In this document: positions 2,915 through 28,090 of the stretch, piece by piece
How positions within the stretch are numbered: the stretch's first letter is position 1
Layout of the letters: each line of letters starts with the position of its first letter
DNA from: Candidatus Cryptobacteroides sp.
Lineage (GTDB): Bacteria > Bacteroidota > Bacteroidia > Bacteroidales > UBA932
Reading direction: 5' to 3'
Assembly (NCBI GenBank): GCA_045130395.1
Contig: JBGUPS010000014.1
Coordinates: forward strand, 22,228-86,227
Length of the DNA stretch: 64,000 bases
Program-made: the position numbers and the translations under genes
Notes under the pieces: model-generated
The model's input: the letters and a program-made list of their open reading frames with translations, nothing else
Databases searched by the model: none
Told to the model about the DNA's origin: nothing

Positions 2915-4201
2915 ATGAAGATTAAACCCGTTACCTTCAAGCTCATCGTGATGCTGTTCCTGGAGTTCGCCGTCTGGGGTGCGTACCTCACCTCCCTCGG
3001 CCGCTATCTGGGCAACATCGGCCTGGGCTCACAGATCAAGTGGTTCTTTGCCATGCAGGGCATCGTGTCCATCTTCATGCCCACCCTCATGGGCATCGTG
3101 GCAGACAAAAAGATGGAAGCCCAAAAGGTGCTTTCCATGTGTCACGGATTTGCCGGCCTGTTCATGGCCGGAGCCGGCGTATACTGCATGATTTCCGGAG
3201 ACCAGGTGCAGTTTGCTCCCCTGTTCATCCTGTACAGCCTCAGCGTCGCCTTCTTCATGCCCACCATCGCCCTGGTCAACTCCGTGTCCTATAACGCCAT
3301 GGCCAAGGAAGGAATGGATCCCGTGAAGGAATTCCCGCCCATCCGTGTATTCGGCACCGTAGGTTTCATCTGCAGCATGCTGCTCACCAACTTCCTGCAC
3401 ATCGGCGGCGTGGCCATGCAGGACAGCTACACCCAGCTCATCTCCTCGGGCGTCCTGTCCCTGATTCTGTGCGGTTACGCGCTCACCATGCCGGCCTGCC
3501 CCATCGACAAAACCAAAAAGAACGAGTCCCTGGCCGATGCTTTCGGTCTCAAGGCTTTCAGCCTGTTCAAGGATACGCAGTTCGCCATCTTCTTCATCTT
3601 CTCGATGCTGCTGGGCGCCTCGCTGCAAATCACCAACGGCTATGCCAACACCTTCCTGGGCTCCTTCGCCGCAGACCCTGCACTGGCCAACACCTTCGCC
3701 GTTAAGAATTCCAACGCCCTTATCGCCATCTCGCAGGCTTCGGAAACCCTTTGCATCCTGTTCATTCCGTTTGCCATGAAGAAATTCGGCATCAAGAACG
3801 TGATGCTCATCGCCATGTTCGCATGGGTGTTCCGCTTCGGCTTCTTCGGACTGGGCAACCCCGCCATGCCGGGCGTGCTGCTATTCGTCCTCAGCTGCAT
3901 CGTGTATGGCTTCGCCTTCGACTTCTTCAACATCTCCGGTTCCCTGTATGTGGAGCAGAATGCCGCAGAGGACATCCGTTCCAGCGCCCAGGGCCTGTTC
4001 ATGATGATGACCAACGGTTTCGGTGCCACCATCGGTACGCTGGCCGCCGGTGCTGTGGTAGATGCCTGCGACGTATTCAATACGCCGGCCAACTGGCCCA
4101 ACGCCTGGTACATTTTCGCCGGTTACGCCTTCGTGGTAGGCGTCCTGTTCTGGATTCTGTTCAAGGACCCGCAGAAGAAAGCCGCCAAGGCCGCTAAATA
4201 A
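2915..4201 (+). CDS. MFS nucleoside:H+ symporter (NupG/XapB family)
   Basis: MLFLEFAVWGAY, FPPIRVFGTVGFI, SQASETLC motifs; 12-TM pattern. Confidence 0.88.
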   Translation: MKIKPVTFKLIVMLFLEFAVWGAYLTSLGRYLGNIGLGSQIKWFFAMQGIVSIFMPTLMGIVADKKMEAQKVLSMCHGFAGLFMAGAGVYCMISGDQVQFAPLFILYSLSVAFFMPTIALVNSVSYNAMAKEGMDPVKEFPPIRVFGTVGFICSMLLTNFLHIGGVAMQDSYTQLISSGVLSLILCGYALTMPACPIDKTKKNESLADAFGLKAFSLFKDTQFAIFFIFSMLLGASLQITNGYANTFLGSFAADPALANTFAVKNSNALIAISQASETLCILFIPFAMKKFGIKNVMLIAMFAWVFRFGFFGLGNPAMPGVLLFVLSCIVYGFAFDFFNISGSLYVEQNAAEDIRSSAQGLFMMMTNGFGATIGTLAAGAVVDACDVFNTPANWPNAWYIFAGYAFVVGVLFWILFKDPQKKAAKAAK

Positions 4202-15420: not shown

Positions 15421-15817
15421 GGGGGTGTTTTGGTTTTGACAGCGCTGATGCTGGACGGTAAGCATGTCGGGCCTCGGAACCTGTCCCGTAAAACGCAGAT
15501 TCCAAAAAATCAGTTGCCAACAACAACTATGCACTCGCTGCTTAATTTGCCAAGCAAATTAACTTAATCCGCCTCGCCAAGGCTGCGGGGCCGACGAGTA
15601 TCCCTCGGAACTTCCGCCTCATAAGGGCCGATCAAGGGGTATCATTCATTTGGGGCCGCTCCGGAGGACGCCTCTAAATCCGGCTAAGACTTAAAGGCTA
15701 AGGGAAGCTTCGCCCGCCTTCCGGCAGGGCTTCTTCGAAAACCAAAGGACGGATAAGCATGTAGAAAGCCGCCTGGTGCGACGTTTGGACAGCGGTTCGA
15801 GTCCGCTCACCTCCACC
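15421..15817 (+). ncRNA. ssrA: tmRNA
   Basis: 5' GGGGGTG pairs with CACCTCC(ACC) at 15808-15817; T-arm GGTTCGAGTCC; tag ORF 15516-15545 encodes ANNNYALAA*; TATTTTTG promoter at 15395-15402. Confidence 0.97.
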
Positions 15818-15984: not shown

Positions 15985-16120
15985 TGCCGCGATTGCAGCT
16001 AGAACTGCCTTAAATGACGATTTCTTGTAAACGCGGCATGGATTTCAGACTTTTTCCCCAAAATCGCTGCCGCGATTGCAGCCGAAATACCGTAGAACAA
16101 TGATTTTTTGTAAACGCGGC
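15985..16120 (+). repeat. about 135-bp four-arm repeat, copy 1
   Basis: Two tandem units of GCCGCGATTGCA-N28-TG(T/C)AA(A/T)CGCGGC; homologous to 17620-17755 and 20181-20315. Confidence 0.85.
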
Positions 16121-17619: not shown

Positions 17620-17755
17620 TGCCGCGATTGCAGCTAGAACGGCCTCAAATGACGATTTCTTGCAAACGCGGCACGGATTTCAGCCTTTTTACTCCAAATC
17701 GCTGCCGCGATTGCAGCCCAAATACCGTAGCACAGCGATTTTTTGTAATCGCGGC
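17620..17755 (+). repeat. about 135-bp four-arm repeat, copy 2
   Basis: Arms at 17621-17632, 17661-17672, 17704-17715 and 17744-17755; 28-nt loops; 83-bp unit period. Confidence 0.85.
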
Positions 17756-17770
17756 CGAAACGCTTTCCCT

Positions 17771-17839
17771 CGTCATGCCTCCCGCGTTCCGTCATGCCCT
17801 CCCCGCTTTCCGTCATGCCCGGCCCCGACCGGGCATCTC
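17771..17839 (+). repeat. REP-like cluster (tandem CGTCATGCC half-sites ending in a full palindrome)
   Basis: GTCATGCCCGGCCCCGACCGGGCATCTC at 17812-17839, identical to 20394-20421 and to the reverse complement of 27794-27821. Confidence 0.8.
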
Positions 17840-18442: not shown

Positions 18443-19063
18443 ATGAAAAAGCTTGTACTTGCATTTGCGGCCCTGCTGTTTGCCTTTGCAGCAGCCCTGG
18501 CGCAGACTCCCGAAGAAATTGTCAGCCGCATGGAGGCGGAAATGAACAGCCATGCAGGCGAAGGCATTGCCATGACGGTGGACATCAAAATTCCTATCCT
18601 GGGAACGGCCACCAGCCGCAGTTATGTGTATGGCAGCAAGCTCCGCGTGGAAATGAAGACGATGGGCGTCCAGGTAGTGACCTGGAGCGACGGCGAGACG
18701 TCCTGGACCTATGTTTCCAAGGACAACTCCCTTACCATCCAATCTGCCGGCCATAAAAAGGCCAACACCGGCGACACGGAACTGTTCATGGGCATCACCG
18801 ACGGCTACGACGTGTCGATGAAGAAGGAAACCGCCGGCGCCTGGCATCTCCTGTGCAAGAAGTCCAAGGGCAACAAGGACGAGGACGACCCCAAGACCAT
18901 GGACCTGGTGGTGTCCAAGAAGAACTATTATCCACTGAGTCTCAAGGCATCCATGTCCGGCATGACCATGACCATGCGCGACATTTCCTTTGACGTCACC
19001 GAGGCCGATGTCACCTTCGACGCCGCCCGGTACCCCGACGCCAAGGTCACCGACAAGCGGTAG
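18443..19063 (+). CDS. LolA-like outer-membrane lipoprotein carrier/sorting protein
   Basis: Signal peptide; QTPEEIVSRM, WSDGETSWTY, VTFDAARYPDAKVTDKR beta-rich LolA-like pattern. Confidence 0.7.
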   Translation: MKKLVLAFAALLFAFAAALAQTPEEIVSRMEAEMNSHAGEGIAMTVDIKIPILGTATSRSYVYGSKLRVEMKTMGVQVVTWSDGETSWTYVSKDNSLTIQSAGHKKANTGDTELFMGITDGYDVSMKKETAGAWHLLCKKSKGNKDEDDPKTMDLVVSKKNYYPLSLKASMSGMTMTMRDISFDVTEADVTFDAARYPDAKVTDKR

Positions 19064-19272
19064 GCGTCCAATTCTCCAACATGAAGGGCCTGCCCAAGGG
19101 GCCTGTCGTGGTAGCGGGCACCCTGGGCCGGAGCCCCCTCGTTGATGAACGGGTCCGAACAGGCCTGGTGGATGTCAAAAATAAGAATTAATATTTTGAC
19201 ATTCCATTTTGGAAAAGCAAGTTTTTCTGTCGTCAATGGGAATATAATTCTTTGGGCGAAAGGCCAAAAACT

Positions 19273-19303
19273 TTTGTAGTTTCAAGAAATAGCATTACCT
19301 TTG
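19273..19303 (+). promoter_or_regulatory. Bacteroidetes primary-sigma promoter with no downstream sense ORF
   Basis: TTTG (19273-19276), 19 nt, TACCTTTG (19296-19303): full consensus. Confidence 0.65.
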
Positions 19304-19307
19304 TACC

Positions 19308-19406
19308 GGATTCGTCAAGGGGAATTCGGGAAGAAGGGATGACAACCCTCTCAAGGAAACTTGATGCGAGCCCCAAAAGTCGCTGCCTAAGCGGCTTTTA
19401 TTTTTT
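19308..19406 (+). ncRNA. candidate structured small RNA convergent on the LPD3-like gene
   Basis: Promoter upstream; P1 GGGG/CCCC plus TTCG/CGAG, P2 AGGG/CCCT, P3 TCAAG-GAAA-CTTGA; terminator AAAAGTCGC/GCGGCTTTT plus T-run; ends are approximate. Confidence 0.5.
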
Positions 19407-19841
19407 CCCCCTTGCCGAGATACAATACTGCACATACTCCCCCGTCGTTTCCTGCTTACCGACAATTAACAAGGCTGATTCCTGTCCCATAACCAAAATC
19501 TCCACATACGGTTTCTGGTTCTTATTATCCCGTTTGGGAGGTTTCTTCTTAATGAGTGCAGCGTGTGAGAGTATTTCAGTTAAGCGAAACACCTCCCGTG
19601 TGGACTCATAAGAAATAGAGGCCTGTCCAGAGGTCTCGTTTATTGACTTACCTTTTATGTATATGAATGCATTAAGGGATTTATTCCAAACACTTTTTGC
19701 AGGATTCTTCGCTATCCAATTTGAGTAAAAATCCTTAATCAGTTGTTTCCGAGCTTTTTTATCCTCTTTAGAGTCTCCCTTCGGTATTTCAATCCCAAGT
19801 ATATCATTGGGCGTTTTTCTATGTTTCCTCTTTCCAGACAT
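19398..19841 (-). CDS. small basic protein, LPD3/BECR-fold-like (putative RNase/toxin)
   Basis: Low-GC ORF; VWN.SL...I.I...SINET...A......LTEIL..A..I...P K..ILV...A.LIVG....YVQY.IS pattern resembles LPD3 (recalled, not searched). Confidence 0.5.
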   Translation of the reverse strand: MSGKRKHRKTPNDILGIEIPKGDSKEDKKARKQLIKDFYSNWIAKNPAKSVWNKSLNAFIYIKGKSINETSGQASISYESTREVFRLTEILSHAALIKKKPPKRDNKNQKPYVEILVMGQESALLIVGKQETTGEYVQYCISARGKK

Positions 19842-20068
19842 AGCTACTTTTGTCAATTTAGTGATTGTGAAAAGAATGATAAGACCACTAGGATTGGCCC
19901 TATTTCTTACTGAATTATTCTTGGTGAAGGGAGCCGCTTCCAGAAAGGAAGACTTACCATACTCCTGATTTCATTACCGGCCGATTCCAACGACCGTTCG
20001 CTTGGAACAAATATAGCCAATAAATCGCACGGAACAAAGAGAAACGGCCATTCTTTGCAGGACTCCCC

Positions 20069-20169
20069 CGTCATGTCGATTATTTAGGTCGATAAACTCG
20101 TCATGCCCGCCCCAGCACCTTGTCATACCCAACCCGAACATCGTCATGCCCGGCCTGATCGGGCATCTC
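20069..20169 (+). repeat. REP-like cluster
   Basis: Degenerate GTCAT half-sites ending in GTCATGCCCGGCCTGATCGGGCATCTC (20143-20169). Confidence 0.7.
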
Positions 20170-20180
20170 TCCCCTGTCCA

Positions 20181-20315
20181 GCCGCGATTACATCTGGAAC
20201 GGCCTCAAATAACGATTTTTTGTAAACGCGGTACGGATTTCAGCCCTTTTACATATAATCGCGGCCGCGATTGCAGCCCCAATACCGCAGAACAGCGTTT
20301 TTTTGCAAACGCGGC
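20181..20315 (+). repeat. about 135-bp four-arm repeat, copy 3
   Basis: Same architecture and orientation as copies 1 and 2. Confidence 0.8.
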
Positions 20316-20330
20316 CGAAGCGCCTCCCTC

Positions 20331-20421
20331 CGTCATGCCTCCCTCGCCCCGGTGATGCCCTCCCTGCATCCCGTCATTCCCGACCTGCACCCCGTCATGC
20401 CCGGCCCCGACCGGGCATCTC
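20331..20421 (+). repeat. REP-like cluster at the left edge of the R-M island
   Basis: About 21-bp period GTCATGCC-like half-sites, then the 28-bp palindrome at 20394-20421. Confidence 0.8.
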
Positions 20422-20502
20422 TTGCTCGGTCGCATCATGCCTCAATTCTTTCGAGAGTTGAGGCTTTTTCGTTATCTTTGTATATACCCATCCAAAGCAA
20501 TT

Positions 20503-21237
20503 ATGAACGAAGACCTTTTAAATCTCCATTTCTCGCCGATCCGAGACTACAAATACGCCAGTTTCTTCGAAGATGTGCAGTACAATGGCAAGATACTCTC
20601 AGACAAGGAGCGAAAAGAATATGTAGCCATAATCGACGAAACCATAGCGAATTACACCGAAGGTCTTCCCCTCATGTACGACATATTGGAAAGTACCAAA
20701 GACAAGCAGGACGAGTATCACGAAATTGACCGAACAGTCGTTTCCGTGATGCAATTTGTACTTATAACAATGATAGACAGTATGGTGGCCAGCAAATACT
20801 TCATTCTGGCTGATAGGGACTATGACAAGCGTTTCATGCGAGGCAAACTGATGGTCATCCTCAACGAGGGCTTTAAGCGCCTGTATGGCTTTAAAGAGAA
20901 GAACCGCAAGAGGTCTGAATGGAATCGGCTCATGCCACTGATGGATTACTTCCCGAAGAAGATTATTCGCCAGTATCAGGAATTAACATATCTTTTGCAA
21001 AGGCACGCAAAATCCTCCTCTTGGTGGAAGGATGAACGAGACTATGAGACACACTTGGATACGGAAAAATTGTATGTCTCTCGTCAGGAAGAAATCATTG
21101 AGAGCAAGGTGATGATAGACTCGATGAAACTGTTTAACACGCTGTTAGCTGTTAATGATTTCCTGTCTAATCTCCACACCTGCCTCTACAACTATGTAGT
21201 TGACAAATATAATCGCGGAGAATTGAGATACGAGTAA
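20503..21237 (+). CDS. hypothetical alpha-helical protein with an RxxxxH motif (HEPN-like)
   Basis: WWKDERDYETHLD (R-x4-H) in a helical-looking low-GC ORF; TATCTTTG promoter at 20473-20480. Confidence 0.45.
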   Translation: MNEDLLNLHFSPIRDYKYASFFEDVQYNGKILSDKERKEYVAIIDETIANYTEGLPLMYDILESTKDKQDEYHEIDRTVVSVMQFVLITMIDSMVASKYFILADRDYDKRFMRGKLMVILNEGFKRLYGFKEKNRKRSEWNRLMPLMDYFPKKIIRQYQELTYLLQRHAKSSSWWKDERDYETHLDTEKLYVSRQEEIIESKVMIDSMKLFNTLLAVNDFLSNLHTCLYNYVVDKYNRGELRYE

Positions 21238-21355: not shown

Positions 21356-24300
21356 ATGGCCGAACTAACCATAGCCAAGTCCTTAAATAAGGCATATCGT
21401 CAGGTCTCTGTAGACCGGCCCATCTTCGACGGCTTCAAAGCCCAACTTCGTAACTATTACGAGCAAATTTCTGTCATAAATACGGAAGAAAAGCTCAAAG
21501 GTGACCTGATGGACTTTCTGAAATTTACGTTTTACGGCCATAATTATAAGGTTTCCCCCAACGGTGATATTGACTGCGCCATTCATCTAGGTGTTAGTGT
21601 TGAAACCCCTGTGGGTGTCATCTTTGAGGTAAAGAAGCCCACCAACACAAACGAAATGATCACGAAGGAGGATCTTAACCGAAAAGCCCTTCAGGAACTT
21701 CTGCTTTACTATCTTCGCGAACGCCACACCAAAAAAAACATACAGTTAAAGCAGTTAATCGTCACAAACATCTATGAGTACTTTGTCTTTGATGCTCGGG
21801 AGTTTGAGCGCCTTTTCTATTCCAACAAAAAGCTCATCAAGTGCTTTGAGGATTTTAACAGCGGAGCTCTGACCTCAGAAAAGACGGATTTCTTCTACAG
21901 GGAGATTGCTTCAGAATTTATTGCGAAAGTCGTAGACCAGATTACGTACACCTGGTTTGACATACGCAAATACAAGTCCTTCCTTGATACTGGCAATGAC
22001 AAGCGCCTCATTGAACTATTCAAGTTCTTCAGTCCTGAGCACTTGCTAAAGAAACGTTTCCAGAACGACAGCAACTCTCTCAACACCAAGTTCTACAGCG
22101 AACTGCTTTATATCATCGGACTGGAAGAAGTGGTGGAGAAGGAAAGCAACAAGCACATCATCACCCGCCGCAAGAAAGAAGAACGCAACCAGGCATCTAT
22201 TTTAGAAAACGCTATCACCATACTCGATAGCGAAGACTGGCTGGATAATGTCAAAGATCGTTTTTCCTTTGGGAAAGACCGCCAGGAGCAACTATTCAGT
22301 GTTGCCCTCGCGCTCACCATAGGCTGGGTAAATCGCGTCCTTTTCCTGAAACTCCTGGAAGCTCAATTGGTAAATTATCACAAAGGTGATCAGAGCTACG
22401 CCTTTATGCGTCCGTCAGTCATCTCTGACTATGACGAACTCAACAAACTCTTCTTTCAGGTCCTTGCCAAGCGTATTGCTGACCGACCGGAAAGTATCAA
22501 TTCTAAATATGGAAAAGTCCCTTACCTAAACAGCTCTCTGTTTGAGATTGGCCCTCTGGAGCGCCAAACCATCCGTATCAGCAGTCTTGAAAATAGCGAG
22601 CTCCCTCTGTTTAGTGGAACTGTACTCAAGGACGGTCAGAAACCTCGTTACGCCAAACTACCTACACTTCGCTATCTGTTGGAATTCCTCGATGCATATA
22701 ACTTCGCCAGCGAGGGCTCTGAGGAAGTGCAAGAACAGGCCAAGACACTCATCAACGCCTCCGTGCTAGGGCTTATATTCGAGAAGATCAACGGGCATCG
22801 AGACGGATCGGTCTTCACGCCTGGCGCTGTAACGATGTATATGAGTCGCGAGGCTATCCGACAGACCGTCGTCCGTCGCTTCAATGAAGAATTAGGCTGG
22901 TCATGCAAAGACTATGAGGCTTTGAAGAACAAGGACATCGAAGATTATGGTAAAGCGAATGCTATAATTGACTCACTCCGCATTTGCGACCCCGCAGTAG
23001 GCTCAGGCCACTTCCTCGTGTCTGTTCTTAATGAAATCATCCGCACGAAGTACGACCTTGGTATCCTTATCGACGATTCTGGCAAACGCATCAAAAAGCA
23101 GGACTACACGATTGATATTGAGAACGATGAACTGCTTATCTCCGATGAAGACGGCAATCCCGTTAATTATAATCCTGGAAACCAAGAGAGTCAACGCATC
23201 CAAGAAACTCTATTCAACGAGAAGCGCAAAATCATCGAGAATTGCCTTTTCGGAGTAGACCTCAACCCTAACGCTGTCAACATCTGCCGCCTCCGTCTGT
23301 GGATTGAGTTGCTAAAAAACGCATACTACACCAAAGATAGTGACTACACTGAGTTGGAGACCCTGCCAAACATTGACATCAATATTAAGGTAGGTAACTC
23401 GCTTTTGCACCGCTTTGACTTGGGGCAGGACATCTCTGAAATCCTCCGTAAGAATGGTATCTCCATCAATGACTACCGTAAGGCAGTTAGTGATTATAAG
23501 AATGCTCACAACAAAGAAGAGAAACGTAATCTGGAAAACTACCTGCGTCAAATTAAAGGGAATCTTCGCACCCAGATTGGTCTAAAAGACCCTAAAGTGG
23601 TTAGTCTTAATAAACTGAAAGACGAACTGGACAACCTTTTAGCTCCCCAACTTTTTGAGATTAGCAAGAAAGAGAAAGCTCAGCGTGATAAACAAGCAAA
23701 GGAACTGCAAGTCAAGATTGATAAGATTCAGGCAGAGGTAGATGAAATAAGGGACAACAAGATCTTCGTTGGTGCTTTTGAATGGCTCATCGAGTTTCCT
23801 GAGGTCCTGGATGAAGATGGTCGCTTCGTCGGATTCGACTGTGTTATTGGCAATCCTCCTTACATCCAACTCCAAAAGATGGGGGCAGATGCCGATGCGC
23901 TCCAGAAGATGAACTACGAGACATACGAGCGTACCGGAGATATCTATTGCCTGTTCTATGAGATGGGACTGAAACTTCTAAAGCAAGGAGCACTACTGTC
24001 TTTCATTACCTCAAACAAGTGGATGAGAGCCGGTTATGGTAAATCTTTGCGAAAGTATCTTTCTTCCAAATACAATCCTACGCTGTTGATCGACTTTGCA
24101 AACAATAAGATTTTTGATTCGGCGACTGTCTTGGTAAATATTCTTTCGTTAGAGAAATGCAACAATCAGGGGCAAACACTATCTTGTTCCGTTGAGGACG
24201 GTTTTGATATAAGTAAATTGAGCGATTATGTGCAGACACACATACAGGTATCGTCTTTCCAAACTGATGATGCTTGGTCTATTTTGAGTGAAATTGAACT

Positions 24301-25156
24301 TAGTATAAAGCGTAAGATTGAGGAGGCAGGAGTACCTCTCAAGGATTGGGATGTGGAAATGTACCGAGGTGTTCTTACGGGATACAATGATGCGTTCATT
24401 ATAACATCTGATAAACGTGAAGAGATCTTGATGAGTTGTGCTGATGAATTCGAGAGAGAAAGGACGGCGGAAATCATTCGACCGATTCTACGTGGCCGAG
24501 ACATCAAGCGTTACGGTTACGAGTGGGCAGACCAGTATATCATAGCCACATTCCCATCCCGCCAGTATGACATAGATAATTATCCTACTCTTAGGGAGTA
24601 TCTTCTGTCTTTTGGCATTGAACGCCTGGAGCAAACAGGGAAAGAGTACTTTATAAATGGTGAGAAGGTAAAAGCCCGTAAGAAAACCAACAATAAATGG
24701 TTTGAAACTCAGGATAACATCAGTTATTGGGACGAATTTTTGAAGCCAAAGATTATTTACCCTAACATGACTAAGTTTTTACCCTTCGTCTATGACACAT
24801 CTGGCCTTGTCACAAACCAGAAGTGCTTTATTATCACGGGTAAACGACTTGCATTCCTCACGGCGTTTTTAAATTCGTCCCTTTTCAAATTTTGTTTTGC
24901 CGACAAGTTTCCCGAACTGCAGGGTAAAACAAGAGAACTTAGTAAAATATTTATGGAGGAGATCCCTGTAATGGAAGTTAGTGAGGACGATGAAGCTCGA
25001 TTCCTCAAGATGGTTGAGGCAACCCAGGAGAGTATCTCGAAAGAAAAACTCTTAGAGATTGATAATGCCATCTTCGACCTGTACCAACTAACAAAGGTAG
25101 AGAGAGACTATGTCGGTTTTATTGATTACGGAGATATGCAAGCTCTTTCTCAGTAA
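21356..25156 (+). CDS. Type IIG restriction-modification enzyme (nuclease, N6-adenine MTase, TaqI-C-like specificity domain)
   Basis: N-terminal D..IH....IFEVKKP..QELLLYY nuclease-like motif; CDPAVGSGHF (motif I); VIGNPPY (motif IV); C-terminal PILRGRDI..Y and KIIYP TRD-type motifs. Confidence 0.92.
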   Translation: MAELTIAKSLNKAYRQVSVDRPIFDGFKAQLRNYYEQISVINTEEKLKGDLMDFLKFTFYGHNYKVSPNGDIDCAIHLGVSVETPVGVIFEVKKPTNTNEMITKEDLNRKALQELLLYYLRERHTKKNIQLKQLIVTNIYEYFVFDAREFERLFYSNKKLIKCFEDFNSGALTSEKTDFFYREIASEFIAKVVDQITYTWFDIRKYKSFLDTGNDKRLIELFKFFSPEHLLKKRFQNDSNSLNTKFYSELLYIIGLEEVVEKESNKHIITRRKKEERNQASILENAITILDSEDWLDNVKDRFSFGKDRQEQLFSVALALTIGWVNRVLFLKLLEAQLVNYHKGDQSYAFMRPSVISDYDELNKLFFQVLAKRIADRPESINSKYGKVPYLNSSLFEIGPLERQTIRISSLENSELPLFSGTVLKDGQKPRYAKLPTLRYLLEFLDAYNFASEGSEEVQEQAKTLINASVLGLIFEKINGHRDGSVFTPGAVTMYMSREAIRQTVVRRFNEELGWSCKDYEALKNKDIEDYGKANAIIDSLRICDPAVGSGHFLVSVLNEIIRTKYDLGILIDDSGKRIKKQDYTIDIENDELLISDEDGNPVNYNPGNQESQRIQETLFNEKRKIIENCLFGVDLNPNAVNICRLRLWIELLKNAYYTKDSDYTELETLPNIDINIKVGNSLLHRFDLGQDISEILRKNGISINDYRKAVSDYKNAHNKEEKRNLENYLRQIKGNLRTQIGLKDPKVVSLNKLKDELDNLLAPQLFEISKKEKAQRDKQAKELQVKIDKIQAEVDEIRDNKIFVGAFEWLIEFPEVLDEDGRFVGFDCVIGNPPYIQLQKMGADADALQKMNYETYERTGDIYCLFYEMGLKLLKQGALLSFITSNKWMRAGYGKSLRKYLSSKYNPTLLIDFANNKIFDSATVLVNILSLEKCNNQGQTLSCSVEDGFDISKLSDYVQTHIQVSSFQTDDAWSILSEIELSIKRKIEEAGVPLKDWDVEMYRGVLTGYNDAFIITSDKREEILMSCADEFERERTAEIIRPILRGRDIKRYGYEWADQYIIATFPSRQYDIDNYPTLREYLLSFGIERLEQTGKEYFINGEKVKARKKTNNKWFETQDNISYWDEFLKPKIIYPNMTKFLPFVYDTSGLVTNQKCFIITGKRLAFLTAFLNSSLFKFCFADKFPELQGKTRELSKIFMEEIPVMEVSEDDEARFLKMVEATQESISKEKLLEIDNAIFDLYQLTKVERDYVGFIDYGDMQALSQ
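24220..24241 (+). repeat. left 22-bp inversion repeat inside the R-M gene
   Basis: GAGCGATTATGTGCAGACACAC, encoding S-D-Y-V-Q-T-H; exact reverse complement of 25962-25983. Confidence 0.95.
24476..24504 (+). repeat. nested 29-bp inverted repeat, left copy
   Basis: ATTCGACCGATTCTACGTGGCCGAGACAT; exact reverse complement of 25699-25727. Confidence 0.9.
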
Positions 25157-25982
25157 AGTCAAACATTGATTCAACAATCTCCTCTAATTGCTTTTCCTTC
25201 AGGCCATCTGAAGCCTCCGAGTTAAGCACCTTTTCAATTGATGCCACGACATCTTCCCGAGGCTGCGGTACGGGAATCTGTTCTACAAACATAGGCTTAT
25301 ACTCAAAGAATCCGCCGTTTCTTACGACACCCAGATTTCGGATGTAGTAGTCAGCCACCTTTGAGTTTAGTACTGCCAAAAGGTATTGACTTCCAGGGAC
25401 AATCATACATGCTGGGGCGTTGATAAACATGTTCTCGGGAGCCATTGCATAGCTACCTCTGGCATTGAGATTACCCCAAACTATTTTTGTCTTCGAAAAT
25501 TCGTCCACATAAGCGCAGTTCCTAAGATTGTATGGAGTATCTCCTTTGTCAGCGCGAGATTCAATCTTATCCCAGTAATAATCAAGATGTTGCTTGATTG
25601 CCGGATAATCTTCAATCTTTATTCGTTCCATGGAGTCTTTCACCCCATTATGAGTGTTGATGAGCCATAAATCAGCCCAATCATAACCGTATCGCCTTAT
25701 GTCTCGGCCACGTAGAATCGGTCGAATAATTTCTGCCGTACTCTGTCGCTCATCATCACAGTGGCAAGATTTAAGGATCTCGTTTCGTTTGGCAGAATCA
25801 ATGATAAAAGCATCATTAAATCCCGTCTTGATGCCATAATTGATTTGGATATCCCAATCCCTTAGGGGAGCGCCTATGGCTTCAATCTTTGCCATAATAG
25901 ATCGTTCTATATCGGATAGTATAGACCAGGATTCCGATGATGCGAAGTGGGAATTAACCGCGTGTGTCTGCACATAATCGCT
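25119..25982 (-). CDS. silent alternative C-terminal specificity module of the Type IIG enzyme
   Basis: No MTase or nuclease motifs; begins at the IR with SDYVQTH in frame; paralogous to residues about 956-1266 of the R-M protein (WSILS.IE.SI..KIE, LRDWD, GFNDAFII, RPILRGRDI.RYGY.WAD). Confidence 0.85.
   Translation of the reverse strand, partial: SDYVQTHAVNSHFASSESWSILSDIERSIMAKIEAIGAPLRDWDIQINYGIKTGFNDAFIIDSAKRNEILKSCHCDDERQSTAEIIRPILRGRDIRRYGYDWADLWLINTHNGVKDSMERIKIEDYPAIKQHLDYYWDKIESRADKGDTPYNLRNCAYVDEFSKTKIVWGNLNARGSYAMAPENMFINAPACMIVPGSQYLLAVLNSKVADYYIRNLGVVRNGGFFEYKPMFVEQIPVPQPREDVVASIEKVLNSEASDGLKEKQLEEIVESMFDFTEKELAYLRNQ
25699..25727 (-). repeat. nested 29-bp inverted repeat, right copy
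   Basis: ATGTCTCGGCCACGTAGAATCGGTCGAAT. Confidence 0.9.
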
Positions 25983-25983
25983 C
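25962..25983 (-). repeat. right 22-bp inversion repeat
   Basis: GTGTGTCTGCACATAATCGCTC; directly abuts the recombinase stop codon (25984-25986). Confidence 0.95.
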
Positions 25984-26589
25984 CTATTCTTTCAGAAAAG
26001 AATGAATATACCTGCCCAGAGTGTTCCGGTCAACCTTGCAGATCTTTGCAATCTTCCGCTGTGATACTCCGGCCTGAAGCAATTCTATAATCAGAGTCCG
26101 TTTGGGGAAGAGTTTGCGCTTGCTTTCCTTGGTCTTCCTACCAAGAGGACGCCCAAGTATTACACCTTCAGCTTTCTTTCTTGCCAGTGCTTCCTTTGTT
26201 CGCTGGCTAATGAGATTGCGTTCTATCTCAGCAGAGAGGCCAAAAGCGAAGGCCAGCACTTTACTCTGAATGTCCTCACCAAGTCTATAATTGTCCTTGA
26301 TAGTCCACACCCTGCAATCCTTCGTCATACAGATGTTGAGAATCTCCATAATCATAAATAGATTACGTCCTAACCGGGAGAGCTCGGCGCAAATAATCAA
26401 ATCATCTTTCTGTACCCGGTTCAACAGACGTCCCAACTCACGCTTGTTGTAATTCTTTGTTCCGCTAATGGTTTCTTCTATCCAGCCGTCTATACTCATA
26501 GACTCCTTGGAGCAGAAGTTATTGATTTCAAACCTTTGATTTTCAACAGTCTGTTTGTCACTGCTGACTCTGATGTAGCCGTAAATCAT
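25984..26589 (-). CDS. serine site-specific recombinase/invertase, Mpi family
   Basis: MIYGYIRVSSDKQTVENQRFEI (catalytic Ser), ELSRLGRN, SKVLAFAFGLSAEIERNLISQRTKEAL, C-terminal HTH. Confidence 0.92.
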   Translation of the reverse strand: MIYGYIRVSSDKQTVENQRFEINNFCSKESMSIDGWIEETISGTKNYNKRELGRLLNRVQKDDLIICAELSRLGRNLFMIMEILNICMTKDCRVWTIKDNYRLGEDIQSKVLAFAFGLSAEIERNLISQRTKEALARKKAEGVILGRPLGRKTKESKRKLFPKRTLIIELLQAGVSQRKIAKICKVDRNTLGRYIHSFLKE

Positions 26590-27607: not shown

Positions 27608-27793
27608 ATTAGTTTGTCCCCCACCATAACCCTTTTAGCAGCAAATACTTTGAGGAGAGCGGCTTACGCTCGCAGGAAACATCGTCATAAGAACTAGGCA
27701 TGACGGAGGGGGTACACTCAAACAGCAGGGTACCGTCGTTAGAGGCAGATTTTGACGGAGGGGGGCCAGGCAGGCGGCAGGGGTCCGGCGGAA

Positions 27794-27821
27794 GAGATGC
27801 CCGGTCGGGGCCGGGCATGAC
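27794..27821 (-). repeat. REP-like palindrome at the right edge of the R-M island
   Basis: Exact reverse complement of 20394-20421 and 17812-17839. Confidence 0.8.
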
Positions 27822-28090
27822 GGGAAAGGGTTGTATTGCAAGGAGCATAACATTCCGTTCTAATATTTGACAGGAAGATACAACTACCTTATACCTGCAA
27901 CGGCTTCCGTTTGCGGGAAACATAGTCATTGGAGCCGGGCATGGCGAAAGAGGCTGGTATGCAAGTAGCTTATTTTCAGACTATTACGAGTATCGACACT
28001 CCCTCTTTTGAAGGGGGCTCGATTACTTATCTTACTGAGTATCTGCGGATTATGTGCCAGGCATAGCCGGCCATGATGACATGATGAAAA

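What the first reader, a model, noticed from the sequence alone, without database searches (positions are those of the whole stretch)
19273..19841. LPD3/BECR-like small protein paired tail-to-tail with a promoter-driven structured sRNA: candidate RNA-antitoxin system
Seen: a full consensus Bacteroidetes promoter (TTTG-N19-TACCTTTG, 19273-19303) precedes about 95 nt with no meaningful sense ORF. This stretch folds into a three-way junction (GGGG/CCCC plus TTCG/CGAG; AGGG/CCCT; TCAAG-GAAA-CTTGA) followed by an intrinsic terminator whose 3' arm overlaps the stop codon of the convergent 147-aa basic ORF. The protein pattern resembles LPD3, a BECR (Barnase/EndoU/colicin/RelE)-type fold (recalled, not searched). 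Established: structured RNAs occur convergent to DUF3800 genes, and RNA antitoxins neutralise RNase toxins in type III and AbiF-type systems. Inference: a possibly undescribed toxin plus RNA-antitoxin or abortive-infection module, close to the R-M island.
Basis: partly seen in the sequence, partly recalled or inferred. Interest (0 to 1): 0.75.

Follow-up and report, generated by a model that had tools for sequence, protein, structure and literature searches.

The report
Structured small RNA paired with LPD3
A previously undescribed, strongly conserved ~95-nt folded RNA is encoded tail-to-tail with every member of a large family of small "LPD3" proteins in gut Bacteroidales; this gives the first functional handle on a protein domain of unknown function and looks most like a toxin kept in check by an RNA.

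Summary
A consensus Bacteroidetes promoter (19273-19303) drives a ~96-nt RNA (19307-19402). Its terminator overlaps the stop codon of a convergent 147-aa ORF, which is a Pfam LPD3 protein.

The RNA is a real, conserved class. It sits in the same tail-to-tail position in 79 of 79 evaluable LPD3 loci from other genomes. Compensatory changes support it in two independent samples (95% and 99% of cells paired; slid controls at most 54%). No Rfam 15 family matches.

The dependence is one-sided. LPD3 never lacks the RNA, but of 104 RNA copies found by RNA pattern, 52 have intact LPD3, 12 have LPD3 fragments and 40 have none.

No third gene is conserved. The module is multi-copy, strain-variable, and often lies among R-M, toxin-antitoxin and Abi genes.

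A distant ~210-aa LPD3 subfamily carries a different convergent sRNA in the same arrangement.

The best reading is a protein effector or toxin neutralised or regulated by direct binding of its partner RNA (type III/AbiF-like in logic, not in membership). This reading is inferred; toxicity, binding and expression are untested. The BECR fold claim is only weakly supported.

The parts
19273..19303 (+). Promoter of the sRNA: -33 TTTG (19273-76), 19-nt spacer, -7 TACCTTTG (19296-303)
   Evidence: Read directly. The equivalent box is present upstream of the RNA in other loci: 73 of 77 have a perfect TAnnTTTG and 70 of 77 have TTTG/TTG at the usual spacing.
19307..19402 (+). Structured sRNA (class 1). 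5' GUC at 19314-16. P1 is 19319-22/19371-74 plus 19325-28/19367-70, with an AA bulge. P2 is 19335-38/19346-49 with the invariant loop AUGACAA (19339-45). P3 is 19351-55/19360-64 and is variable in other loci. A terminator follows.
   Evidence: Covariance-model hit of 89.7 bits, E 1e-22. RNAalifold consensus. Covariation counts. No Rfam family matches.
19375..19405 (.). Shared, probably bidirectional, intrinsic terminator: A-tract, hairpin, T-tract. It overlaps the LPD3 stop codon (19398-19400).
   Evidence: Terminator scan. In 79 loci the stop codon lies a median of 32 nt from the 3' end of P1, that is, in or at the terminator hairpin. Terminator pairs covary.
19398..19841 (-). Stand-alone LPD3-domain protein, 147 aa, basic N- and C-termini. 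Candidate effector or toxin.
   Evidence: Pfam PF18798, 33.8 bits against a cut-off of 27. AlphaFold2 model with pLDDT 90. Foldseek hits to LPD3 domains of phage polyvalent proteins, E 1e-5 to 2e-4. The family has 1576 clusters at 90% identity and 576 representatives at 50%.
19879..20045 (-). LPD3 mRNA promoter and structured 5' leader. Promoter: TTTG-N19-TATATTTG, with the -7 box at 20008-20015. Conserved leader motif at 19921-19996. Terminator-like hairpin at 19879-19903, followed by 37 nt to the ATG.
   Evidence: Alignment of upstream regions. 40 copies found by pattern. RNAalifold on 35 sequences. Hairpin found. Sequence read. Only about 12 of 80 LPD3 loci have the leader, so it is an optional part of the module.
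19021..19915 (.). Strain-variable cassette that holds the sRNA and LPD3
   Evidence: In four bovine gut metagenome runs the flanks have word depth 60-94. The cassette has depth only 4-14 where contigs lay on it; part of the left end had none, and the sRNA core is inflated by paralogues. The major strain diverges at 19020 and rejoins at 19916.

Best explanation
This is a self-contained two-gene RNA-protein module. One gene encodes a small basic LPD3-domain protein. The other encodes a ~95-nt sRNA with its own consensus promoter, convergent to the protein gene and sharing its terminator.

The sRNA folds into a three-way junction. Its invariant parts are the inner half of P1 with its AA/AU bulge (GGAAUUCG...CGAGCC) and the 7-nt P2 loop (A/U)(U/C)GACAA. 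These are proposed (inferred) to be the surface that the LPD3 protein binds.

The most likely logic (inferred) is toxin/antitoxin-like. The abundant RNA binds the protein and keeps it inactive or otherwise controls it, as in type III and AbiF-RCd22 systems. The protein then acts when the RNA:protein balance is disturbed, for example on phage infection or loss of the element.

Shown:
- conservation of the RNA, its structure and its promoter
- the strict, one-sided linkage
- the absence of any third conserved gene
- the multi-copy, strain-variable, island-associated distribution
- the same architecture with a different RNA in a distant LPD3 subfamily

Inferred: RNA-protein binding, toxicity, and the trigger.
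For: 1. Linkage. 79 of 79 evaluable LPD3 loci from different genomes (43-66% protein identity to the window protein) carry the RNA in the same tail-to-tail position, with the stop codon 15-43 nt from P1 in nearly all.

2. The RNA is under structural selection: RNAalifold plus covariation in two independent samples. It keeps a near-consensus promoter.

3. Asymmetry. Of 104 RNA-ascertained copies, 52 have a near-full LPD3, 12 have LPD3 fragments and 40 have none. Extra RNA copies lie beside LPD3 remnants. The converse, LPD3 without the RNA, was never seen.

4. No protein partner. All other neighbour clusters occur in at most 5 of 81 loci. The 129 nearest neighbours hit 127 Pfam families, none in more than 5 proteins. 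No conserved small upstream ORF exists; what is conserved there is an RNA leader.

5. Selfish or defence-like distribution:
- several divergent copies per metagenome-assembled genome (MAG) or contig
- strain-variable cassette
- neighbours include type I and type IIG R-M, ParE, AbiH, NYN, HicB/HigA-like genes and integrases
- sometimes directly beside tRNA or tmRNA genes

6. A distant ~210-aa LPD3 subfamily has a different promoter-driven convergent sRNA whose terminator also overlaps the stop codon. The pairing, not the particular RNA, is what is conserved.

7. The protein has many invariant polar and aromatic residues (R31, K63, S66, N68, E69, K103, N108, Q109, Y136, Y139). It also shows a weak but recurrent structural resemblance to RelE/ParE-type toxins.

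8. Precedent. AbiF is neutralised by direct binding of its ncRNA RCd22.
Against: - Nothing here shows toxicity, binding or even transcription. RNA-seq evidence is limited to low-depth assembled contigs without strand or ends.
- The fold match to RelE-like toxins is not significant, and there is no PDB sequence match.
- PADLOC, PHROGs and NCBIfam know nothing of the protein.
- About 40% of RNA copies are solo, with intact promoter and terminator and high model scores. This is compatible with orphan antitoxins but equally with an RNA that has its own function.
- The architecture (single-copy, convergent RNA) differs from every established RNA-antitoxin family.
- The two linkage samples were ascertained differently, so the asymmetry is not a formal test.
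Confidence: 0.45

Rival explanations
1. Ribonucleoprotein effector. The sRNA is an obligatory structural or specificity subunit of an LPD3 ribonucleoprotein (RNP), a cofactor rather than an inhibitor. The complex acts in conflicts with phages or mobile elements. Solo RNA copies serve LPD3 proteins encoded elsewhere in the genome.
For: It rests on the same linkage evidence as the main explanation. The invariant loop and bulge alongside a freely varying P3 are typical of a protein-recognition scaffold. A distant subfamily has its own RNA. Weinberg 2017 described protein-associated RNAs with 3' terminators (DUF3800-I, drum, skipping-rope) as possibly performing a sophisticated task together with the protein.
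Against: A cofactor model does not by itself explain LPD3 pseudogenes that retain an intact RNA. The RNA has no variable guide-like segment other than the P3 hairpin. No catalytic activity is known for LPD3.
Confidence: 0.25
2. Independent sRNA gene plus hitch-hiking cargo. The RNA is a trans-acting or otherwise autonomous sRNA family of Bacteroidales. The 3' flank of its gene is a hot spot where cassettes, of which LPD3 is the commonest, are inserted or exchanged. Protein and RNA do not interact.
For: About 38% of RNA copies have no LPD3, and various genes (ParE, NYN, Vsr, AbiH-like, AAA ATPase, WYL) lie beside them. The cassette is exchanged between strains. Some copies sit next to tRNA or tmRNA genes, which are classical integration sites.
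Against: LPD3 is never found without the RNA (79 of 79), and always in the same geometry, sharing the terminator. Both flanks of the pair are variable, so the pair moves as a unit. There are several copies per genome. The window has no partial RNA duplicate that would mark an attachment site. A distant LPD3 subfamily has an analogous but different RNA, which hitch-hiking does not predict.
Confidence: 0.12
3. Cis-antisense (type I-like) control. The sRNA acts by base pairing with the LPD3 mRNA, through the complementary 3' ends created by the shared terminator (as in convergent type I pairs) or through the 5' leader.
For: The two transcripts necessarily overlap by about 25-45 nt at the terminator. 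In some loci the LPD3 mRNA has a long structured leader.
Against: The conserved three-way junction and its invariant loops lie outside the overlap and would be unexplained. The short 5' UTRs of LPD3 genes without the leader are not conserved and show no evident complementarity to the sRNA. Predicted sRNA-leader duplexes are no better for cognate pairs (-41.3 kcal/mol) than for non-cognate pairs (-42.4) or shuffled RNA (-40.4). Solo RNAs have no target. The protein is not a small hydrophobic peptide.
Confidence: 0.06
4. Cis-regulatory element or chance hairpins. The stretch would be a riboswitch or leader of a sense-strand gene, or merely the 3' UTR and terminator of LPD3.
For: On the single sequence the fold is not significant (z = -1.63).
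Against: No sense-strand gene follows; a terminator and a convergent gene do. The RNA has its own conserved promoter. Covariation is strong in 75 and in 98 distinct sequences. The opposite strand does not fold better than shuffles.
Confidence: 0.02

Closest known systems
Protein-associated structured RNAs with 3' terminators (DUF3800-I to -XI, drum, skipping-rope, FuFi-1; Weinberg et al. 2017, PMC5737381)
   Same: These are highly conserved, complex sRNA motifs followed by an intrinsic terminator. They are not in 5' UTRs and are tightly associated with one protein domain, which may be encoded on the other strand. Different, unrelated RNA structures accompany different subgroups of the same protein domain. 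Here, class 1 and class 2 RNAs accompany two LPD3 subfamilies.
   Different: The protein domain is different (LPD3, not DUF3800), and the RNA is different (no Rfam match at any threshold used). The geometry here is fixed (convergent, shared terminator), whereas those motifs occur on either side and in either orientation. The function of those motifs is also unknown.
AbiF (Abi_2) with ncRNA RCd22 of Clostridioides difficile (bioRxiv 10.1101/2025.04.15.648962)
   Same: A toxic protein is neutralised by a structured ncRNA encoded next to it, through direct RNA-protein interaction. The RNA is active in cis and in trans, and the context is phage or defence. This is the mechanism proposed here.
   Different: There is no Abi_2 domain here. 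The RNA motif is different. Nothing has been tested experimentally here.
Type III toxin-antitoxin systems (ToxIN, CptIN, TenpIN)
   Same: An RNA antitoxin folds (in ToxI as a pseudoknot) and binds its protein toxin. The modules are small, mobile and phage-defence-associated (structural details from my own knowledge of the ToxIN literature).
   Different: In those systems the RNA is a tandem array of 34-36-nt repeats upstream of the toxin on the same strand, separated from it by a terminator and processed by the toxin. Here there is one non-repetitive 95-nt RNA (no tandem repeats). It is convergent and has its own promoter. The protein is not ToxN, CptN or TenpN.
LPD3 domains of phage and conjugative-element polyvalent proteins (Iyer et al. 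2017, PMC5512222)
   Same: The domain is the same by HMM and by predicted fold.
   Different: There LPD3 is one module of giant injected multidomain proteins, has no assigned function, and has no RNA partner described. Here it is a stand-alone chromosomal gene. No relative was found in 2.9 million viral contigs, 50,697 phage records or 72,556 plasmids.
Convergent type I pairs with a shared bidirectional terminator (e.g. par/Fst RNA I-RNA II of pAD1; own knowledge)
   Same: The toxin mRNA and the regulatory RNA are transcribed towards each other and end at one terminator.
   Different: Those toxins are small hydrophobic peptides, and control is by base pairing. Here the conserved RNA features are a folded junction outside the overlap, and no complementarity to the mRNA 5' region was found.

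Membership tests
Pfam LPD3 (PF18798) | Score at or above the curated gathering threshold of the family HMM | tested here: met
   33.8 bits against a cut-off of 27, E 4e-8, covering residues 37-135. Most homologues carry the precomputed PF18798 hit.
Pfam LPD3 (PF18798) | Same fold as LPD3 domains of phage polyvalent proteins | tested here: met
   AlphaFold2 model with pLDDT 90.4. Foldseek against the BFVD library: four hits with E <= 2e-4 and TM 0.55-0.65 on the query, two of them named LPD-containing proteins and one a PolyVal ADP-ribosyltransferase.
BECR (Barnase/EndoU/colicin E5-D/RelE) fold | Significant structural similarity to a member (helices followed by a four-stranded antiparallel sheet) | tested here: inconclusive
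   No PDB hit reaches E <= 0.001. However, RelE2 (3g5o_B), RelE1 (9g12_B), T. thermophilus RelE, P. horikoshii RelE, the PfiAT toxin-antitoxin complex (9w3a) and HigB recur among the top hits (E 0.15-1, probability up to 0.57, TM about 0.5 on the target). The predicted secondary-structure order fits: three short helices, then four strands.
BECR (Barnase/EndoU/colicin E5-D/RelE) fold | Published assignment of LPD3 to the BECR superfamily | tested here: not met
   Iyer 2017 lists LPD1-40 as domains whose functions remain elusive. It treats its PBECR domains separately, and it does not list LPD3 among the seven putatively enzymatic LPDs.
BECR (Barnase/EndoU/colicin E5-D/RelE) fold | RNase activity or catalytic residues | not testable with these tools
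   Invariant K, R, Y, N, Q, S and E residues exist, but their role is unknown.
Type III toxin-antitoxin (ToxIN/CptIN/TenpIN) | Toxin of the ToxN/AbiQ, CptN or TenpN families | tested here: not met
   The only Pfam hit is LPD3. PADLOC gives nothing meaningful.
Type III toxin-antitoxin (ToxIN/CptIN/TenpIN) | Antitoxin RNA encoded as tandem direct repeats upstream of the toxin on the same strand | tested here: not met
   No tandem repeats in 19000-20200. The RNA is single-copy, convergent and downstream.
Type III toxin-antitoxin (ToxIN/CptIN/TenpIN) | RNA binds and neutralises the protein | not testable with these tools
   Inferred only from linkage.
Type I toxin-antitoxin | Small hydrophobic toxin peptide | tested here: not met
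   The protein is 147 aa, basic, and predicted to be a globular alpha/beta protein.
Type I toxin-antitoxin | Antisense complementarity to the toxin mRNA that explains the conserved RNA features | tested here: not met
   Only the terminator overlaps. No complementarity to the 5' UTR or leader beyond controls.
AbiF / Abi_2 with ncRNA | Abi_2 (AbiD/F) protein domain | tested here: not met
   No Pfam or PADLOC hit.
Rfam families (DUF3800-I to -XI, drum, skipping-rope, all 4227 models) | Covariance-model score at or above the gathering threshold | tested here: not met
   Nothing relevant even at E <= 10 in the window. Across 20 diverse loci only tRNA and tmRNA reach the gathering threshold.
Riboswitch / cis-regulatory leader (for the 19307-19402 RNA) | Location in the 5' UTR of a sense-strand gene | tested here: not met
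   The RNA is followed by a terminator and a convergent gene in all loci.

The most novel reading that the evidence does not exclude
The sRNA may be a substrate mimic. P2 has the dimensions of a tRNA anticodon stem-loop: a 4-5-bp stem and a constant 7-nt loop (A/U)(U/C)GACAA, which reads as U33-like, triplet GAC, A37, A38. The invariant 5' GUC could pair with that GAC like a codon; the only variants seen, GUU and GAU, keep the pairing by wobble.

On this reading the RNA would be a decoy of a codon-anticodon or anticodon-loop substrate that occupies the active site of LPD3, and LPD3 would be a RelE/colicin-like (BECR) tRNA or A-site mRNA nuclease.

By extension, LPD3 domains injected by phages and conjugative elements would be RNA-targeting weapons. 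Chromosomal solo copies of the RNA would be immunity genes against them.
Probability: 0.1. Interest if true: 0.85.

Novelty: new variant of a known kind. Interest (0 to 1): 0.72.

Why it matters
LPD3 is a widespread domain of phage and conjugative-element polyvalent proteins and has no known function. A strictly co-inherited, structurally constrained RNA partner predicts that LPD3 is an RNA-binding, possibly RNA-cleaving, domain. That makes the question directly testable through toxicity and rescue, binding assays and mutational analysis.

The finding adds a well-supported new bacterial RNA class, backed by about 180 distinct sequences with covariation. It probably adds two further motifs: the LPD3 leader and the class 2 sRNA.

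It also adds a second example, after DUF3800, of one protein domain that recruits unrelated structured RNAs. If the toxin/antitoxin reading holds, this would be an RNA-antitoxin system with a new architecture. It would be abundant in ruminant and other gut Bacteroidales and located in defence islands.

Tried and rejected
1. Single-sequence folding. It was not significant and gave a different MFE structure, so it is not usable as evidence either way.

2. Pseudoknot between the 5' GUC and the P2-loop GAC. Both triplets are essentially invariant, and a fourth pair fails in 4 sequences. There is no covariation, so this stays tentative.

3. RNA-seq. Only Logan contigs were available. RNA-like contigs exist in 7 metatranscriptome runs, but at depth 2-30, without strand, and some run through the promoter. 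Expression is therefore unresolved.

4. Phage or plasmid origin. There were 0 RNA pattern hits and 0 LPD3 relatives in viral contigs, and no tblastn match in phage or plasmid records.

5. Attachment-site hypothesis. No second or partial RNA copy exists in the window.

6. Protein antitoxin or third component. None is conserved.

7. sRNA pairing with the LPD3 leader or 5' UTR. Predicted duplexes are no better than controls.

8. Known families. Rfam, PHROGs, PADLOC, NCBIfam and PDB sequence searches were all negative.

9. Conservation of solo versus linked RNAs at core positions. This is uninformative, because the search pattern itself required those positions.
Full report
**Observation.**
- TTTG (19273-76), a 19-nt spacer and TACCTTTG (19296-303) form a full Bacteroidetes-type promoter.
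- The next ~100 nt have no meaningful sense ORF.
- They contain the proposed helices: GGGG/CCCC plus UUCG/CGAG (P1, with an AA bulge), AGGG/CCCU (P2, loop AUGACAA) and UCAAG-GAAA-CUUGA (P3).
- A terminator-like hairpin follows at 19375-99, with a T-run. Its 3' arm overlaps the stop codon (19398-400) of the convergent ORF 19401-19841, 147 aa from its ATG.

On this one sequence the fold is not significant (z = -1.63) and the MFE structure is a different one. The reverse strand folds no better than shuffles. The case therefore rests on comparison with other sequences.

**The protein.** The ORF passes the Pfam LPD3 threshold (33.8 bits against 27).
- A 30-sequence alignment (A1) shows many invariant polar and aromatic residues: R31, Y39, W42, W52, N53, K63, S66, N68, E69, T81, K103, N108, Q109, Y136 and Y139.
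- AlphaFold2 gives a confident model (pLDDT 90.4): a long helix, a beta-hairpin, three short helices and a four-stranded sheet.
- Foldseek against viral models finds LPD3 domains of phage polyvalent proteins (E 1e-5 to 2e-4).
- Against the PDB nothing is significant. RelE, ParE-like and HigB toxins recur among the best sub-threshold hits (E 0.15-1, TM about 0.5 normalised to the target).
- A profile search of PDB sequences, PHROGs, PADLOC and NCBIfam gives nothing useful.
- The paper that defined LPD3 lists it among domains of unknown function. It does not place it with its PBECR RNase domains or with the seven putatively enzymatic LPDs.

The label "LPD3" is therefore right. "BECR-type fold" is a lead, not a result.

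The family is large: 1576 clusters at 90% identity and 576 representatives at 50% identity with E <= 1e-3. Most members are stand-alone proteins of 100-250 aa. No relatives were found in viral contigs, phage records or plasmids.

**The RNA is a conserved class.** I fetched 80 loci from species-representative genomes that encode a relative of the protein. All are uncultured Bacteroidales, including Prevotella, Cryptobacteroides, Egerieisoma and Muribaculaceae, mostly from ruminants.
- In 79 of 79 loci with downstream sequence, the same RNA lies convergent to the gene. The 80th contig ends 34 nt after the gene.
- 73 of 77 distinct copies have a perfect TAnnTTTG box, and 70 of 77 have a TTTG/TTG element at the usual spacing.
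- The LPD3 stop codon lies a median of 32 nt from the 3' end of P1, inside or at the terminator hairpin.
- Pair counts on that alignment: 95.3% of cells paired, 16 of 25 pairs with changes on both sides, 0 of 500 shuffles reaching the covariation score, and 29-54% paired when partners are slid.
- P3 is fully variable in sequence and length (up to about 60 extra nt) but always pairs. P1 and P2 each show G-C to A-U swaps.
- Invariant parts are GGA(A/U)(A/U)UCG, the P2 loop (A/U)(U/C)GACAA on a 4-5-bp stem, and UCGAGCC.
- A covariance model (R1) finds one copy in the window, at 19307-19402 (89.7 bits, E 1e-22).
- An independent set of 104 copies from metagenomes reproduces the covariation (99.1% paired).
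- No Rfam 15 family matches, either at E <= 10 in the window or at gathering thresholds in 20 diverse loci.
- A possible 3-bp pseudoknot (5' GUC with loop GAC) is invariant and so remains unproven.

**Linkage is one-sided.** I scanned metagenome contigs for the RNA pattern alone and classified the 104 copies that had at least 600 nt beyond the RNA core.
- 52 have a near-full convergent LPD3, 12 have only LPD3 fragments, and 40 have none.
- Solo copies keep their promoter and terminator and score 63-88 bits.
- Genome loci also hold extra RNA copies beside LPD3 remnants (L025, L070, L009), and one locus has two complete modules (L031).

So LPD3 implies the RNA, but the RNA does not imply LPD3. 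The two samples were ascertained differently, so this is descriptive and not a statistical test.

**Context.**
- No other gene is conserved. All other ORF clusters occur in at most 5 of 81 loci.
- The 129 nearest neighbours hit 127 Pfam families, ranging from glutamine synthetase and glycosidases to HsdM/HsdS, integrases, MazG-like, ORF6N and PD-(D/E)XK transposases.
- Solo RNAs sit beside ParE, AbiH, NYN, Vsr-like, AAA and WYL genes.
- Several metagenome-assembled genomes (MAGs) carry two or more divergent modules.
- Some modules abut tRNA or tmRNA genes (L019, L050, L071). In the window a tmRNA lies 3.5 kb upstream, in the same orientation.
- In the window the module marks the start of an ~8-kb low-GC stretch. 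That stretch also holds a type IIG Eco57I/MmeI-like R-M enzyme, a spare TaqI_C specificity gene, a resolvase/invertase and a NERD protein.
- In four bovine gut metagenome runs the flanks have word depth 60-94. The segment 19021-19915 has depth only 4-14 where contigs lay on it, and the major strain diverges exactly at 19020 and 19916. The module is therefore a strain-variable cassette.

**Two further RNA elements.**

*First*, about 12 of 80 LPD3 genes, including the window's, have a long 5' leader with its own consensus promoter (TTTG-N19-TATATTTG; -7 box at 20008-15 on the minus strand).
- The leader carries a ~76-nt conserved motif (19921-19996, minus strand): a hairpin CGGUCG/CGGCCG, then UGAA...GGAGC, a variable hairpin, and GCUCC.UUCA.
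- A terminator-like hairpin follows (19879-19903).
- The same leader precedes other genes: ORF6N proteins, a DUF3800 protein, and a 171-aa family with a weak CdiA_C match.
- It is not in Rfam.
- It shows no complementarity to the sRNA beyond controls.
- The right edge of the strain-variable cassette lies just downstream of this leader, so the leader may serve as a common expression platform for exchangeable cargo. This last point is inference.

*Second*, members of a distant LPD3 subfamily of 206-214 aa (profile E about 1e-29) each have a different, ~150-nt, promoter-driven convergent sRNA whose terminator again overlaps the stop codon (L201, L206, L208, L210, L211).
- R1 does not detect these RNAs.
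- Five sequences share blocks and a long-range helix with two compensatory pairs. This is tentative.
- Two longer relatives (287 and 508 aa) show no such RNA.

**Mechanism.**

*Shown:* a structurally constrained sRNA and LPD3 form a two-gene unit that moves and decays as a unit. The protein is never without the RNA.

*Inferred:* the RNA binds the protein through its invariant P1-bulge and P2-loop face and neutralises or controls it. This is the logic of type III systems and of AbiF-RCd22. The reasoning for preferring this over the rivals is as follows.
- No protein antitoxin candidate exists.
- Antisense control does not explain the conserved junction and finds no target.
- A pure hitch-hiking model does not explain the 79 of 79 linkage with fixed geometry, or the analogous class 2 pairing.
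- An RNP-cofactor model remains a serious rival. It accounts for the dependence, but less well for intact RNAs beside LPD3 pseudogenes.

I put 0.45 on the RNA-antitoxin reading, 0.25 on the cofactor/RNP reading, 0.12 on an independent sRNA with cargo hot spot, and less on the rest.

A speculative refinement: P2 has anticodon-stem-loop dimensions, and the 5' GUC could mimic a codon. This would fit a decoy for a RelE/colicin-like RNase (with the weak fold hits). Probability about 0.1.

**Comparison with known systems.**
[quoted passage not shown] As there, unrelated RNAs accompany subgroups of one domain.
- The proposed working resembles AbiF-RCd22 and type III toxin-antitoxin systems. Membership fails on every defining feature that could be tested: protein family, tandem repeats, strand and order.
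- It is not a type I system. The toxin is not a peptide, and no explanatory complementarity was found.

I found no description of an LPD3-associated RNA in the searchable literature or in Rfam 15.

**Limits.** There is no direct evidence of transcription, binding or toxicity. RNA-seq data were assembled contigs only. Genome-level copy counts could not be made. The class 2 RNA and the leader rest on few sequences or on invariant helices.

Noticed in passing
window 19879-20045 (- strand); also L001:2833-2925, L005:2816-2906 and 3806-3896, L011:1713-1800, L089, L098, L110, L113, L186 and others: A second conserved structured element lies in the 5' leader of LPD3. It has its own TTTG-N19-TATATTTG promoter. 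Its consensus is CGGUCGnnGAAUCGGCCGGUAAUGAAAYCAGGAG, a variable hairpin, then GCUCCCUUCACAA, followed by a terminator-like hairpin. The same leader precedes ORF6N, DUF3800 and a 171-aa weakly CdiA_C-like gene family. It is not in Rfam. It is a candidate cis-regulatory RNA of exchangeable cargo genes.
   Followed up: partly
L201:1595-1743(-), L206:808-963(-), L208:809-964(-), L210:748-913(-), L211:1075-1225(-): A distant 206-214-aa LPD3 subfamily has a different ~150-nt promoter-driven convergent sRNA ('class 2'). Its terminator overlaps the gene's stop codon. The five sequences share blocks (..CGAAGCAnCAC....CUGGGGCARGAA..) and a long-range helix with two compensatory pairs. Model R1 does not detect it.
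   Followed up: partly
window 21356-26589: A type IIG R-M enzyme (DUF7149/DUF7814/Eco57I/TaqI_C; 21356-25156) is followed by an oppositely oriented spare TaqI_C specificity gene (25119-25973) and a resolvase/invertase (25984-26589). Inverted repeats link them: 24452-24531/25672-25751 (80 nt, 85% complementary) and 24220-24241/25962-25983 (22 nt, 100%). This looks like a phase-variable specificity shufflon.
   Followed up: no
window 16000-16120, 17621-17791, 20181-20351; 20391-20423 and 27792-27824: A dispersed GC-rich intergenic repeat family of about 120-170 nt has very high depth in metagenomes (up to about 1200x against 60-90x for the flanks). A perfect 33-nt inverted repeat, part of this family, brackets the R-M/NERD island.
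   Followed up: no
window 15421-15817; L050:3724-4125; L046:5507-5905; L071:3522-3593; L019:2851-2925: tmRNA or tRNA genes lie close to the module in several loci. In L050 the tmRNA ends about 240 nt upstream of the sRNA, on the same strand. In L071 a tRNA ends about 20 nt from the sRNA promoter. This suggests the modules ride in islands integrated at such genes.
   Followed up: partly
L031:682-803(-), L155:3343-3418(-), L173:4147-4222(-): A variant of the sRNA lacks the usual terminator. Instead it carries a conserved ~60-nt 3' extension (..GUAAGUCGUGGnnGGACGAUGUAAUGGGUAGnGCGAAGUCCCCGCCCGCAUCGC..). In L031 it accompanies a second LPD3 gene.
   Followed up: no
window 20422-21237 (+): A 271-aa ORF with no Pfam or NCBIfam hit lies directly upstream of the type IIG R-M gene. 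Relatives lie near R-M genes in three other loci (for example L011:737-1516).
   Followed up: no
window 19021-19915: In four bovine gut metagenome runs the sRNA-LPD3 cassette is carried by a minor strain only (depth 4-14 against 60-94 for the flanks). The major strain has different, unresolved sequence between 19020 and 19916, probably another sRNA variant with other cargo.
   Followed up: partly
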